From the IMG/VR virus record IMGVR_UViG_3300044644_001556: DNA of 64,000 nt, one strand, 5' to 3'. This stretch comes from a virus. The position numbers and the translations under genes were made by a program. Shown in pieces: positions 39,469 to 44,028 of the stretch. The notes beneath the pieces are model-generated. The model searched no databases. It worked only from the letters and a program-made list of their open reading frames with translations, and was not told where the DNA came from. Each line of letters begins with the position of its first letter. Position 1 is the stretch's first letter.

Positions 39469-40227
39469 CTAAGCAGCTAAATCAGCTTTCAATAATCTAG
39501 CAATTGCTTTAACTTCAATATTTACAACACCTAATACACCTAATGCGGCCCATCCGAAGAATACGAAGCCGTAGTGTAAAGGAGCAACAAATAATTCTTC
39601 CATAAACCAGAAAGTGTGACCCCATTCATTCAAACCTACGTTTGGAAGAATCATGAAAGGTCCAATTACTGATACCATGTACTGTAATGGCAAACCTTGT
39701 TGATAGGTTGGCAATCTTGTTTTTGCATATAAGAAAGATGCAACACCAGTAATGATATAGATTGGGTAGCTCAAATAGAATTCAATAACATGACTTGGAG
39801 TGAAGTCAGTGTCACGAACGATAGTTTGATGCCATGTACCATCTTGTTCTGTAAAGTAAGAAGCACCGTAATAAATTGCGATACCGTACATTACCAACCA
39901 TACCCAGTGTGTAAAATGACGACGTAATTCTTCGCGTGGTGTGATCGACATTACTTTACGATCACGACTTTTCCAGATATATCCCCATAATACTGAAGCG
40001 GTTACGATTTCTAGAACCATTTCAATATAAAGGAAGTTCATCCAGTATGTTTCGAATTCTGGTGCAAATGAGTCTAAACCAGCTGACCAACCGTAAACTC
40101 CTTCATACCAACGAACCCAACCGTAGAATACAACATAAAGTGCAGCACCAGCGAACATATTTTTTTTGTTTAAAAGTGGTGCTTCTGTAACTGACGATAC
40201 AACGTCTGATTTAATTGTAGCTGACAT
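39469..40227 (-). CDS. pmoC: particulate methane monooxygenase subunit C (auxiliary metabolic gene)
   Basis: GWSAGLDSFAPEF, EQDGTWHQTIVRDTDFTPSH, PNVGLNEWGHTFWFMEELFVAPLH: hallmark PmoC motifs with metal ligands intact. Confidence 0.97.
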   Translation of the reverse strand: MSATIKSDVVSSVTEAPLLNKKNMFAGAALYVVFYGWVRWYEGVYGWSAGLDSFAPEFETYWMNFLYIEMVLEIVTASVLWGYIWKSRDRKVMSITPREELRRHFTHWVWLVMYGIAIYYGASYFTEQDGTWHQTIVRDTDFTPSHVIEFYLSYPIYIITGVASFLYAKTRLPTYQQGLPLQYMVSVIGPFMILPNVGLNEWGHTFWFMEELFVAPLHYGFVFFGWAALGVLGVVNIEVKAIARLLKADLAA

Positions 40228-41249: not shown

Positions 41250-41324
41250 TGGCTCCCTAGGATGGATTCGAACCACCGACCAGACGATTAACAGTCGTCG
41301 GCTCTGCCACTGAGCTACTAGGGA
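41250..41324 (-). tRNA. tRNA-Asn(GTT)
   Basis: Loop CTGTTAA, encoded CCA. Confidence 0.92.
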
Positions 41325-41341
41325 ATATATTTTATATAACT

Positions 41342-41453
41342 AGATTCTATTTATTTCAAATACTCTACCAACTGAGCTACGCGAGGCTTTAATTCACGGT
41401 CGGAATCGAACCGACGACACTTTGATTCGCTAAATTTTTTGCTGTTAGAATCT
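41342..41453 (-). ncRNA. circularly permuted tRNA mimic (YrlA/Y-RNA-like topology)
   Basis: T-arm precedes D-arm, acceptor stem closed by a loop, outer stem AGATTCTA/TAGAATCT. Confidence 0.7.
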
Positions 41454-41462
41454 TATTTAATT

Positions 41463-41491
41463 ATTATACTTGACTTATTCTAATATATCAA
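41463..41491 (-). promoter_or_regulatory. sigma70 promoter for the permuted tRNA mimic
   Basis: TTGATA-17-TATAAT, about 10 nt before the outer stem. Confidence 0.75.
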
Positions 41492-42728: not shown

Positions 42729-42742
42729 GTTTATTTCTAACA

Positions 42743-42935
42743 AGATACATTTTAATTTCGCCAATGAAAGTTTTTGAAATTGCTGTTAGTATCTTTAAAT
42801 TATCTAGATATCATCTTTCAATTATAAAATTGATATCTATAACTCGGAGTGAGTTTTATTTTTTTTAAAAATCCATTTTAACTAGATACATTTTAATTTC
42901 GCCAATGAAAGTTTTTGAAATTGCTGTTAGTATCT
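42743..42935 (-). repeat. two identical 52-nt hairpin units (AGATACTAACAGCAA...GTATCT)
   Basis: 42743-42794 equals 42884-42935. Confidence 0.9.
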
Positions 42936-43356: not shown

Positions 43357-44028
43357 ACTATCATACATCTCCACTAGTGGGACTTGAACCCACGCCCGAT
43401 ATTGTCCGGTAGCCGGCATGTTCATGCATCCGAACATCGTAAGGTCTACTCCTCCCATGGCTCTAACCAACTGAGCTATAGTGGAGATGTATGATAGTGC
43501 TTGTCTTTCCAAGCCGTCATGAAGGTCTCCGTTACTATCAATAATTGCCACCGCAAGGAATCGAACCTAGATTTACCGGTTTGTTAGCAAGTTGCCTTAC
43601 ACCATTTAGACGACAATAGCAATTATTGATAGTGCTTGTCTTTCCAAGCGGTCACCACACATTAAATATTAATAAAACGCTGATGGGATTCGCACCCATA
43701 TTTCAAACCGCGCTGGGTAAGTGTACTTCAAGTCTTATACGACAGCGTTTTATTTCTAATCTGAAAGTTGTCTTAAGTAGACGGTTCAGCTCCCCTACAG
43801 CCGTTGGTTACCGAGTCGGTGGTCGGTTGATAATTATAATATAACTATCAATAAAATGCACGTTACTTCTTCCGAAATATAATATCTTAAGCTACTATAC
43901 TCGGCTTTACTGAGCTTTCCCCACTTGCGTGCTTTATACTCGAATCTGTACGCGCGTAACATATCGAATAAGGCCTCTACTATCTTTCGATGCATTTTAT
44001 TGATGGTGCTTGTCTTTCCAAACTGTCA
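43357..44028 (-). ncRNA. three-unit structured RNA array with tRNA-like cargo
   Basis: TGACnG(C/T)TTGGAAAGACAAGC three times, each followed by a 15-20 bp clamp stem. Confidence 0.75.

What the first reader, a model, noticed from the sequence alone, without database searches (positions are those of the whole stretch)
41342..41491. Circularly permuted tRNA mimic (YrlA/Y-RNA topology) with its own promoter and a non-canonical outer stem
Seen (minus strand): AGATTCTA-ACAGCAA...TCAAA-GTGTC-GTCGG-TTCGATT-CCGAC-CGTGA-attaaagcc-TCGCG-TA-GCTC-AGTTGGTA-GAGT-A-TTTGA...TAGAATCT. The T-arm comes first, the acceptor stem (CGTGA/TCGCG) is sealed by a loop, the D-arm follows, and the anticodon stem (TCAAA/TTTGA) continues into an 8-bp terminal stem instead of a loop. 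A TTGATA-17-TATAAT promoter sits directly upstream. Established: this permutation is the architecture of bacterial YrlA Y RNAs, which bind Ro60/Rsr (TROVE) proteins. Inference: the outer stem carries an ACAGCAA internal loop rather than a recognisable Ro60 site, so this may be a distinct Y-like RNA class whose partner (TROVE/vWA-type) is encoded elsewhere. No such ORF is in this window.
Basis: partly seen in the sequence, partly recalled or inferred. Interest (0 to 1): 0.82.

Follow-up and report, generated by a model that had tools for sequence, protein, structure and literature searches.

The report
Sealed inside-out tRNA mimic, Y-RNA-like
This lake phage encodes a 114-base RNA that is a tRNA body written inside-out, sealed at its amino-acid end and clamped by a short conserved "handle", a design that in hundreds of phages sits beside the gene of a Ro60-shaped ring protein and so probably marks an undescribed kind of Y RNA.

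Summary
On the minus strand at 41453-41340 lies a T arm, a loop-sealed 5-bp acceptor stem, a D arm and a 5-bp anticodon-type stem. That stem opens through an asymmetric loop into a perfect 8-bp closing helix followed by ACAGCAA.

It is not a decoding tRNA and not an Rfam YrlA member (32.7 bits against a cut-off of 69). It belongs to an uncatalogued family of phage small RNAs that share a covarying helix plus an invariant ACAGCAA "handle".

- In 79 viral loci the handle occurs 156 times on the strand of a DUF2828/DUF7788 gene, almost always upstream, and never on the other strand.
- That protein is predicted to fold like Ro60: the top 12 PDB matches are all Ro60/Rsr.
- Thirteen RNAs built like this one support every helix by compensatory changes.
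- Close homologues lie upstream of DUF2828 in pmoC-phage relatives.
- Five of five cultured phages tested carry handle RNAs beside the gene.

Best reading: a Y-RNA-like partner RNA whose handle docks the Ro60-like ring and whose sealed tRNA body is the effector or decoy module.

The partner gene is not in this window, and I could not check the rest of the genome. This scan has already met the same family on other DNA; 100 earlier findings in at least 84 genomes matched my word look-up.

The parts
41463..41491 (-). Sigma-70-like promoter candidate: TTGATA, 17 nt, TATAAT. The -10 box ends 9 nt upstream of the RNA's first helix base.
   Evidence: 11 of 12 consensus positions. Promoter-like sites are common in this AT-rich region (14 found, 9.3 expected), so this is only suggestive.
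41446..41453 (-). 5' strand of the closing helix (AGATTCTA), part of the handle.
   Evidence: Perfectly complementary to 41342-41349. The first six pairs covary in 13 homologous RNAs.
41439..41445 (-). ACAGCAA, the invariant single-stranded part of the handle.
   Evidence: Invariant in A3. In DUF2828 loci, 219 distinct copies lie on the gene strand and 68 on the other strand; 71% of the former have a complementary partner helix, against 22% on the other strand and 26% with shuffled helix sequence.
41426..41438 (-). Linker AAAATTTAGCGAA. Probably the remnant of an anticodon arm; TTTAG-CGAA could pair weakly with TCAAA. It contains the CGAA core of the Y-RNA motif.
   Evidence: Direct reading. 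The Rfam YrlA alignment places GCGAAU on the model's gCgaAU. The motif is not enriched family-wide.
41421..41425 (-). 3' strand of the anticodon-type stem (TCAAA), followed by variable loop GTGTC (41416-41420).
   Evidence: Pairs with TTTGA at 41356-41360. All 5 pairs show changes on both sides in A3.
41399..41415 (-). T arm: GTCGG / TTCGATT / CCGAC.
   Evidence: 100% paired in A3, with 4 of 5 pairs compensatory.
41380..41398 (-). Sealed acceptor-type stem: CGTGA, loop ATTAAAGCC, TCGCG. Five pairs, one of them G-U; no CCA.
   Evidence: All 5 pairs show compensatory changes in A3. The closest homologues have 7-bp stems closed by the tetraloops GCAA or GTAA.
41362..41379 (-). U8-A9 (TA) and D arm: GCTC / AGTTGGTA / GAGT.
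41356..41360 (-). 5' strand of the anticodon-type stem (TTTGA), preceded by A26 at 41361.
41340..41355 (-). 3' side of the junction (AATAAA), 3' strand of the closing helix (TAGAATCT, 41342-41349) and the conserved trailing N-G (AG, 41340-41341).
   Evidence: C, T and the final G are invariant in A3.
42882..42935 (-). Sibling handle RNA: a 54-nt hairpin, AGATAC-TA-ACAGCAA...GGCGAAA...AAAAT-GTATCT-AG.
   Evidence: Homologous hairpins with UUUCAUUGGCGAAA occur in the pmoC-phage relative G014.
42741..42794 (-). Second copy of the 54-nt handle hairpin.
41250..41324 (-). tRNA-Asn, 15 nt downstream of the RNA. RNase P cleavage at its 5' end would free the RNA's 3' end.
   Evidence: The processing step is inferred.

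Best explanation
The element is a stable non-coding RNA of about 114 nt. It is either transcribed from the promoter-like site just upstream or cut out of a transcript shared with tRNA-Asn.

It has two modules:
1. A handle: an 8-bp closing helix formed by the two ends, plus single-stranded ACAGCAA and a trailing N-G.
2. A complete tRNA elbow (T arm, D arm, variable loop and anticodon-type stem) whose acceptor end is sealed by a loop and which has no anticodon loop. It can be neither charged nor used for decoding.

The handle is the docking site for a phage-encoded ring protein of the Ro60 fold: the DUF2828/DUF7788 family, a TROVE-like helical ring plus a vWA domain with a MIDAS site. The tRNA-shaped body is the effector module. 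By mimicry it would engage, or occupy, proteins that recognise tRNA. Candidates are processing and modification enzymes, exonucleases as in the Ro60-Y RNA-PNPase machine, RNA repair ligases, or host tRNA-cleaving defence nucleases.

Shown here: the structure and its covariation, the handle family, its genetic linkage to DUF2828, and the Ro60-like predicted fold.

Inferred: physical binding, the presence of the partner in this phage, and the role of the tRNA body.
For: Anatomy:
- Sequence reading.
- YrlA covariance model match with E 2.2e-5 over the T arm, sealed stem and D arm.

Family:
- The strict handle pattern occurs 156 times on the gene strand and 0 times on the other strand, in 67 of 79 DUF2828 loci. 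Nearly all copies are upstream of the gene, 36 of them in the last kilobase.
- 71% of ACAGCAA copies on the gene strand have a complementary partner helix, against 22-26% in the controls, and 64 different helix sequences are used.

The class built like this element:
- In 13 RNAs from different contigs, 90.1% of cells are paired against 36-42% when the partners are slid, and 21 of 25 pairs show compensatory changes in every helix.

Partner protein:
- The ORF next to the RNA array hits DUF2828 and DUF7788.
- The MIDAS motif DxSxS...T...D is invariant.
- The AlphaFold model has pLDDT 85 and pTM 0.83.
- The top 12 Foldseek PDB hits are all Ro60/Rsr/TROVE, aligned over the full length, and include the Ro60 of Thermus phage phiLo.

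Co-occurrence:
- DUF2828 is present in 4 of 4 large contigs with true handle hits, against 1 of 5 contigs with chance hits.

Cultured phages:
- Handle RNAs lie beside the gene in Shigella phage Sf14, Mycobacterium phage Archie, Listeria phage LP-Mix_6.2, Campylobacter phage CP81 and Aeromonas phage PX29.

This phage's own group:
- 4 of 5 pmoC-phage contigs (PmoC 91-93% identical) encode DUF2828.
- Two of them carry close homologues of this RNA, and one of these also homologues of the window's hairpins, upstream of the gene.

Precedent:
- Ro60 binds Y RNAs through the stem formed by their two ends, and bacterial YrlA carries a tRNA-like domain (Chen et al. 2014, PMC4201824).
- A phage Ro60 binds phage Y-like RNAs and host PNPase (PMC12135203).
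Against: - No DUF2828 or TROVE gene is in this 64-kb window (tblastn).
- No binding data exist for any DUF2828 protein.
- The canonical Ro60 motif GNCGAAN0-1G is not a family feature, and the canonical TROVE profile does not hit the partner.
- Single-sequence folding is not significantly better than shuffles (z = -1.5).
- This element lies in a variable part of the tRNA array. One contig that shares the adjacent pmoC, tRNA-Asn and tRNA-Pro lacks this stretch of the array, so it is dispensable at least there.
Confidence: 0.66

Rival explanations
1. A true circularly permuted tRNA gene. The two ends would be cut and ligated at the anticodon side, the sealed acceptor opened by RNase P and 3' processing, and a decoding tRNA produced, as in Cyanidioschyzon merolae and Thermofilum pendens.
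For: - The order 3' half, linker, 5' half matches permuted tRNA genes.
- Some family members keep a 7-8-bp acceptor, an encoded CCA and even an intact CUGUAAA anticodon loop.
- M. smegmatis YrlA is cut by RNase P and receives CCA (PMC4201824).
- An RtcB-type ligase lies 1.3 kb from DUF2828 in a Listeria phage.
Against: - The acceptor here is only 5 bp, with C-A and C-U mismatches at positions 1-2, and has no CCA.
- No joining of the ends yields a 7-nt loop with U33.
- The ends form a perfect 8-bp helix with a 20/6-nt loop, not a bulge-helix-bulge.
- The host is bacterial: the pmoC is of bacterial type, and no tRNA-splicing endonuclease of that kind is known in bacteria.
- The closest homologues seal the acceptor with the stable tetraloops GCAA and GTAA, the opposite of what a processing substrate needs.
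- In one lineage the anticodon loop has decayed (A33).
Confidence: 0.04
2. The handle is a processing or ligation signal rather than a protein-docking tag. It would act as an intron-like or cassette boundary recognised by an RNA endonuclease or ligase, and the DUF2828 protein would be only an accessory chaperone.
For: - In L071/L129 and in Aeromonas phage PX29 the same handle sits inside the anticodon region of tRNA bodies of normal topology. GenBank annotates the PX29 case as a two-piece tRNA-Leu.
- Units stand in tandem about 10 nt apart, with an invariant trailing G.
Against: - After removing the handle, no canonical anticodon loop results in the cases I read.
- Many handle RNAs are plain hairpins with nothing to splice.
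- The tightest and most general link is to the Ro60-like gene, not to a nuclease or ligase.
Confidence: 0.1
3. A free-standing tRNA decoy that works without the Ro60-like protein, for example as bait for host anticodon nucleases or other tRNA-binding defence proteins. The handle would only provide stability.
For: - The tRNA elbow is intact.
- The element is embedded in a phage tRNA array next to a Pth2-type peptidyl-tRNA hydrolase.
- In this phage it lies far from any DUF2828 gene.
Against: A stabilising helix would not need an invariant single-stranded ACAGCAA, nor a strand-specific linkage to one protein family across very different phages.
Confidence: 0.1
4. A decaying by-product of rearrangement in the tRNA array, namely the junction of two tandem tRNA genes, with no function of its own.
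For: - The module looks derived from a tRNA dimer junction. Relatives keep a duplicated 5' anticodon-stem strand.
- The element lies in a variable stretch of the array.
- The acceptor is degenerate compared with its homologues.
Against: - Compensatory changes occur in every helix across 13 RNAs.
- The closing helix is a perfect 8 bp, and the exact handle is shared with two other RNAs in the window.
- All tertiary-contact bases are conserved.
Confidence: 0.05

Closest known systems
YrlA-type bacterial and mycobacteriophage Y RNAs bound by Ro60/Rsr (Rfam RF02553; Chen et al. 2014, PMC4201824)
   Same: - Two-module design: a stem formed by the 5' and 3' ends, plus a tRNA-like domain in the order T arm, sealed acceptor-like stem, D arm, joined through the anticodon-stem position.
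- Conserved tRNA tertiary bases.
- Genes of the family lie on the same strand within a few kb of a ring protein with the Ro60 fold and a vWA/MIDAS domain.
   Different: - Scores 32.7 bits against a gathering score of 69. Relatives score nothing.
- The protein-side module is a covarying helix plus invariant ACAGCAA, not GNCGAAN0-1G.
- The partner family is DUF2828/DUF7788, which the TROVE profile PF05731 does not detect.
- The handle also carries non-tRNA cargo, and is found inserted in tRNA bodies of normal topology.
Thermus phage phiLo Ro60 with Yrl1/Yrl2 (PMC12135203; PDB 9KOP, 9L5Y)
   Same: A phage-encoded Ro60-fold protein with small partner RNAs encoded just upstream. The structure is among the top fold matches of the DUF2828 model.
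   Different: The phiLo RNAs were identified by the CGAA motif and are not described there as tRNA mimics. No ACAGCAA handle is reported in the passages I read.
Circularly permuted tRNA genes of Cyanidioschyzon merolae and Thermofilum pendens (from my own knowledge; Soma et al. 2007, Chan et al. 2011; not read here)
   Same: The 3' half is encoded before the 5' half, and a short linker joins the acceptor ends.
   Different: There is no bulge-helix-bulge, the acceptor is 5 bp, there is no anticodon loop, and the context is a phage of a bacterial host.
Phage T4 stable RNAs species 1 and 2 (rnaD, rnaC) in the T4 tRNA cluster (from my own knowledge)
   Same: Small stable non-tRNA RNAs encoded inside a phage tRNA cluster and processed with it.
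   Different: No sequence comparison was made here, and no Ro60-like partner is known for them.

Membership tests
YrlA (Rfam RF02553) | Covariance-model score at or above the curated gathering score (69 bits) | tested here: not met
   32.7 bits, E 2.2e-5 on 451 nt. No YrlA hit at gathering in 8 related loci, nor at E <= 0.1 in the Archie and Sf14 loci.
YrlA (Rfam RF02553) | tRNA-like domain in the order T arm, closed acceptor-like stem, D arm, with tRNA tertiary bases | tested here: met
   Covariation in all arms.
YrlA (Rfam RF02553) | GNCGAAN0-1G motif near the 5' end (Chen et al. 2014) | tested here: not met
   The window has AGCGAAU: the CGAA core is there, but the first and last G are missing. 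Its two sibling hairpins have GGCGAAA. Across 158 family RNAs, 30 contain CGAA against about 41 expected by shuffling.
YrlA (Rfam RF02553) | Encoded within about 4 kb of, and on the same strand as, a TROVE-domain Ro60 orthologue | tested here: not met
   No DUF2828 in the window by tblastn, and no TROVE or DUF2828 hit among the ten window ORFs scanned against Pfam. PF05731 was found in 0 of 5 contigs that carry handle RNAs.
YrlA (Rfam RF02553) | Bound by Rsr; carries T54, pseudouridine 55 and D modifications | not testable with these tools
   Needs immunoprecipitation and modification mapping.
Helix + ACAGCAA handle RNAs linked to DUF2828 (uncatalogued; defined operationally here) | Closing helix of at least 6 bp formed by the RNA ends, ACAGCAA two bases after the 5' strand, and N-G after the 3' strand | tested here: met
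   AGATTCTA...TAGAATCT-AG with ACAGCAA. The same pattern defines 156 units in DUF2828 loci. Helix positions 3-6 covary.
Helix + ACAGCAA handle RNAs linked to DUF2828 (uncatalogued; defined operationally here) | A DUF2828/DUF7788 (Ro60-fold) gene in the same genome, usually downstream on the same strand | not testable with these tools
Indirect support: 4 of 5 related pmoC-phage contigs have the gene, with homologous RNAs upstream of it.
Circularly permuted tRNA genes | Bulge-helix-bulge formed by leader and trailer at the junction | tested here: not met
   By reading: a perfect 8-bp helix and a 20/6-nt internal loop, with no pair of 3-nt bulges 4 bp apart.
Circularly permuted tRNA genes | A 7-bp acceptor that can be opened to give a chargeable end, and a 7-nt anticodon loop with U33 after joining | tested here: not met
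   5-bp acceptor, no CCA, and no reading of the junction gives U33.
Ro60/TROVE proteins (for the inferred partner) | TROVE helical ring plus vWA domain with MIDAS motif | tested here: met
   At the fold level: the top 12 PDB hits are Ro60/Rsr, TM 0.49-0.61 over about 520-570 columns. The DxSxS, T and D of MIDAS are invariant. At the sequence-profile level PF05731 does not hit.

The most novel reading that the evidence does not exclude
The helix+ACAGCAA handle is a portable docking tag. With it, phages load many interchangeable tRNA-derived cargos onto one Ro60-like ring: sealed inside-out tRNAs like this one, anticodon arms, and whole tRNA bodies. The result would be a phage-built tRNA-surveillance or decoy particle used in the conflict over host and phage tRNAs. 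In one group of phages the same cassette also includes a true homologue of the major vault protein, which would make it a prokaryotic-virus counterpart of the Ro and vault particles.
Probability: 0.2. Interest if true: 0.85.

Novelty: new variant of a known kind. Interest (0 to 1): 0.7.

Why it matters
Y RNAs and Ro60 are known from animals, about 5% of bacteria and a few phages, and their function is still debated.

- **How widespread the partner is.** DUF2828 has relatives in 711 cultured phage records and in more than 500 viral contigs. They include relatives of Felix O1, Listeria P100/A511-type phages, Campylobacter phages and mycobacteriophages. If its partner is this handle family, Ro60-type particles are far more common in phages than the TROVE annotation suggests. 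They also use a different RNA recognition element.
- **How to find the RNAs.** The handle gives a simple sequence rule for finding them.
- **How to test the idea.** The sealed tRNA bodies give a concrete hypothesis (tRNA mimicry as effector or bait) that can be tested in laboratory phage-host pairs.
- **A practical annotation point.** Some of these RNAs are currently annotated as intron-containing tRNAs, or are covered by spurious small ORFs.

Tried and rejected
- Exact and near-exact pattern scans for the window's own contig found nothing in viral contigs or metagenome contigs.
The partner gene in this phage therefore could not be checked.
- Megablast of 22 kb against cultured phages found only tRNA matches.
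- My first idea, an archaeal virus with a BHB-spliced permuted tRNA, was dropped. The AmoC/PmoC is of bacterial type and there is no BHB.
- The alternative outer pairing proposed by the Rfam alignment (UAGCGA with UAGUUA) was rejected in favour of the covarying AGATTC/GAATCT helix.
- The CGAA/GNCGAA motif as a family feature was rejected.
- A search for an orthologue next to pmoC in 80 pmoC loci found none. Homologues were found instead upstream of DUF2828.
- The vault reading does not apply to this phage group. An MVP-like gene is present in 30 of 79 DUF2828 loci, but absent from three pmoC-phage contigs, a 373-kb phage and Sf14.
- Blast of the two tRNA halves found no recent donor tRNA.
- Burroughs and Aravind 2016 on TROVE and RNA repair is not held. 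What I say of it is from memory.
- The supplements of Chen et al. 2014 are not held. I therefore could not check whether any of their 22 phages belong to the DUF2828 type.

Full report
**1. The observation**

On the minus strand from 41453 to 41340 the sequence reads: AGATTCTA, ACAGCAA, AAAATTTAGCGAA, TCAAA, GTGTC, GTCGG-TTCGATT-CCGAC, CGTGA-ATTAAAGCC-TCGCG, TA, GCTC-AGTTGGTA-GAGT, A, TTTGA, AATAAA, TAGAATCT, AG.

In tRNA terms this is:
- the 3' strand of an anticodon stem, the variable loop and the T arm;
- a 5-bp acceptor stem closed by a 9-nt loop;
- U8-A9, the D arm and position 26;
- the 5' strand of the anticodon stem.

The two ends then form a perfect 8-bp helix. The bases that build the tRNA elbow are all present: U8, A14, G15-C48, G18G19, T54-T55-C56, A58 and G53-C61.

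ARAGORN and Rfam find 12-13 ordinary tRNAs in the window but none here. The only family that matches is YrlA, whose model encodes exactly this inverted order. It scores 32.7 bits, E = 2.2e-5 for the 451 nt searched, well under the curated 69 bits.

Such matches are frequent in this AT-rich DNA.

RNAfold on the single sequence finds the outer helix but not the cloverleaf, and the energy is unremarkable (z = -1.5).

**2. Context**

The window comes from a large phage of a bacterial host. It carries:
- a bacterial-type pmoC/amoC (NF041641, 394 bits);
- a Pth2 peptidyl-tRNA hydrolase;
- NAMPT and an NMNAT-Nudix protein;
- a 945-aa FN3-repeat tail-like protein;
- 13 tRNA genes.

No whole genome is held and no close relative exists among cultured phages.

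Two identical-design 54-nt hairpins at 42935-42882 and 42794-42741 share the element's outer module: AGATAC-TA-ACAGCAA ... Everything below I tested myself.

**3. A family defined by the handle**

A scan of viral contigs for AGATNCTAACAGCAA returned mostly chance hits, but also clear relatives in large phage contigs, next to tRNA genes.

In L071 three tRNA bodies of normal topology stand in tandem, with perfect 7-bp acceptors. Their anticodon loops are replaced by AAAAAU-GUAUCU-loop-AGAUAC-UAACAGCAA plus 13-14 nt. This is the same two-dimensional structure as the window element, circularly permuted.

Immediately downstream lies a 491-aa ORF that hits DUF2828 (PF11443) and DUF7788 (PF25043). 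DUF2828 was present in 4 of 4 large contigs with true handle hits, and the canonical TROVE profile in 0 of 5. Of five contigs whose hits looked like chance matches in coding DNA, one had DUF2828.

**4. Linkage**

With an alignment of the phage DUF2828 proteins I fetched 79 viral loci centred on the gene.

- A strict handle pattern (AGR-NNN-NN-ACAGCA[A/T], then a complementary hexamer followed by N-G within 300 nt) occurs 156 times on the gene's strand and never on the other strand.
- It is found in 67 of the 79 loci.
- All but three copies in the full-length loci lie upstream of the gene, and 36 lie in the last kilobase.

I also dropped the complementarity requirement. ACAGCAA is then three times more frequent on the gene strand (219 against 68 distinct copies). 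On that strand 71% have a partner helix. The figure is 22% on the other strand and 26% when the helix sequence is shuffled. Sixty-four different hexamers are used. The helix is therefore maintained by compensation while ACAGCAA stays fixed.

**5. The partner's fold**

An alignment of 51 phage DUF2828 proteins shows an invariant MIDAS signature: D301-x-S303-x-S305, T366 and D398. The AlphaFold model has pLDDT 85.3 and pTM 0.83.

Foldseek against the PDB gives Ro60/Rsr/TROVE structures as the 12 best hits. They align over 517-567 columns with TM 0.49-0.61, and include Xenopus and human Ro60, Deinococcus Rsr and the Ro60 of Thermus phage phiLo. After them come only isolated vWA domains. A sequence profile finds nothing in the PDB. 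The relationship is thus visible at the fold level only.

Some GenBank records already call these proteins "RNA-binding protein" or "Ro-like RNA binding protein". I found no paper that links DUF2828 to partner RNAs.

**6. The class built like the window element**

Of 163 distinct strict-handle RNAs, 55 contain a T arm. Many have the full order handle, T arm, sealed acceptor, D arm, handle.

I aligned thirteen such RNAs from different contigs with MAFFT, without any structural guidance, and scored them against the structure read from the window element:
- 90.1% of cells form standard pairs, against 36-42% when the 3' partners are slid by 1-3 columns.
- 21 of 25 pairs show changes on both sides.
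- No shuffle of 500 reaches the observed covariation score.
- Every helix is supported: the closing helix, the long-range anticodon-type stem (5 of 5 pairs compensatory), the T arm, the sealed acceptor and the D arm.

Acceptor stems range from 4 to 8 bp. Some members keep an encoded CCA. A tRNA-Tyr-like group keeps the CUGUAAA loop and a duplicated 5' stem strand. This suggests the modules arose from the junction of two tandem tRNA genes.

None of these RNAs reaches the YrlA gathering score. The YrlA/Y-RNA motif GNCGAAN0-1G (PMC4201824) is not enriched in the family. The window element has only AGCGAAU.

**7. Relatives of this phage**

PmoC relatives at 91-93% identity occur on large viral contigs. 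Four of the five I tested encode DUF2828.

In the complete 372-kb contig G014 and in G012, eight handle RNAs each lie among tRNA genes upstream of the DUF2828 gene, on its strand. They include close homologues of the window element (L296:9889-10001 minus; L297:2912-3026 plus). These share its variable loop GTGTC and its D arm. Their acceptors are 7 bp long and closed by the tetraloops GCAA and GTAA.

G014 also carries a hairpin with the window hairpins' UUUCAUUGGCGAAA; G012 has a related one with UUUUGGUGAAAA. Sealing by a stable tetraloop argues for a deliberately closed acceptor.

The window itself has no DUF2828 gene.

**8. Cultured phages**

tblastn finds DUF2828 relatives in 711 phage records. 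All five records I opened have handle RNAs on the gene's strand within a few kb:

| Phage | Handle RNAs found |
|---|---|
| Shigella phage Sf14 (Felix O1 relative) | Four, one with a T arm and sealed stem |
| Mycobacterium phage Archie | Three; L209:7501-7622 is a permuted tRNA mimic with a 7-bp sealed acceptor |
| Listeria phage LP-Mix_6.2 | Three; an RtcB-type ligase lies 1.3 kb downstream of the gene |
| Campylobacter phage CP81 | Two, partly under a small annotated ORF |
| Aeromonas phage PX29 | Handle inside a tRNA body annotated as a two-piece tRNA-Leu |

**9. Mechanism**

What is established elsewhere:
- Ro60 binds Y RNAs through the stem formed by their ends.
- The rest of the Y RNA gates the ring or tethers other proteins such as PNPase.
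- Bacterial YrlA uses a tRNA-like domain as that second module. The domain is modified by tRNA enzymes and, when its stem has 7 bp, is cut by RNase P (PMC4201824).
- A phage Ro60 binds phage Y-like RNAs and host PNPase (PMC12135203).

By analogy I propose that the helix+ACAGCAA handle docks the DUF2828 ring, and that the sealed tRNA body is the effector or bait.

The structure, the family, the linkage and the fold are shown here. Binding and function are inferred.

The rivals are set out in their own section with the evidence for and against each. They are a true permuted tRNA gene, a processing or intron-like signal, a free-standing decoy, and a decaying remnant.

**10. Novelty**

The topology and the general idea are those of YrlA, so this is not a new kind of system. 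The RNA recognition module, the partner protein family and the modular use of the handle are not in Rfam or in the literature I could search. That modular use covers hairpins, inside-out tRNAs, and tRNA bodies with the handle in the anticodon arm. I file it as a new variant of a known kind.

This scan has already reported the same family on other DNA; 100 earlier findings in at least 84 genomes held my search words. My tests were made independently of those reports and agree with them.

Noticed in passing
L139:11329-13803 (+), L147:10037-12163 (+), and 28 further DUF2828 loci: A 709-825-aa protein hits Pfam MVP_shoulder and Vault_3. In the PDB it matches only major vault proteins (E 8e-18, residues 427-770). 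Homologues are present in 30 of 79 DUF2828 loci, in most of them 0.1-3.5 kb downstream of the Ro60-like gene. It is absent from pmoC-phage contigs, a 373-kb phage and Sf14. This may be a phage vault-like gene set: TROVE-like protein, small RNAs and MVP.
   Followed up: partly
L071:2740-3130 (= L129:7340-7740); L298:6886-7002 (Aeromonas phage PX29): tRNA bodies of normal topology with 7-bp acceptors carry the handle, closed by a short loop, in place of the anticodon loop. This is the circular permutation of the window element. GenBank annotates the PX29 case as a two-piece tRNA-Leu.
   Followed up: partly
L122/L128 (contig IMGVR_UViG_3300012165_000002, about 73.5-75.1 kb): The DUF2828 gene is split into a 155-aa and a 367-aa part by a 278-aa ORF with a LAGLIDADG-like motif (YLLGYIYADG). 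This looks like a homing endonuclease or intein-type insertion.
   Followed up: no
L299:5831-7042 (Listeria phage LP-Mix_6.2): An RtcB-type RNA ligase, annotated RNA-2',3'-PO4:RNA-5'-OH ligase, lies 1.3 kb downstream of the DUF2828 gene. This recalls the rsr-yrlBA-rtcBA operon of Salmonella.
   Followed up: no
L176:9575-11420 and six related loci: DUF7192 and a MoxR-like AAA_5 ATPase lie directly downstream of DUF2828, the usual partner type of vWA/MIDAS proteins.
   Followed up: no
L071:2618-2695, L068:1432-1509, L011:5407-5497: ARAGORN calls suppressor-type tRNAs (anticodons CUA and UUA) in handle-bearing phages. This hints at stop-codon recoding in these phages.
   Followed up: no
window 43545-43621 (-): ARAGORN reports a tRNA-like gene with a four-base anticodon (aaca). 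Rfam does not call it at gathering score.
   Followed up: no
window 39469-40227 (-): A stand-alone, full-length, bacterial-type PmoC/AmoC gene lies 1.1 kb downstream of the element. The gene and a few neighbours recur at about 81-87% DNA identity in other phage contigs, but the tRNA array around it differs.
   Followed up: partly
L300:2843-2980 (Campylobacter phage CP81 ORF140): This small annotated ORF overlaps two handle RNAs (2806-2869, 2878-2956) and is probably spurious.
   Followed up: no
L200:4205-4488: A phage-encoded tmRNA (Rfam RF00023, 75 bits) lies inside the tRNA/handle-RNA array upstream of DUF2828.
   Followed up: no
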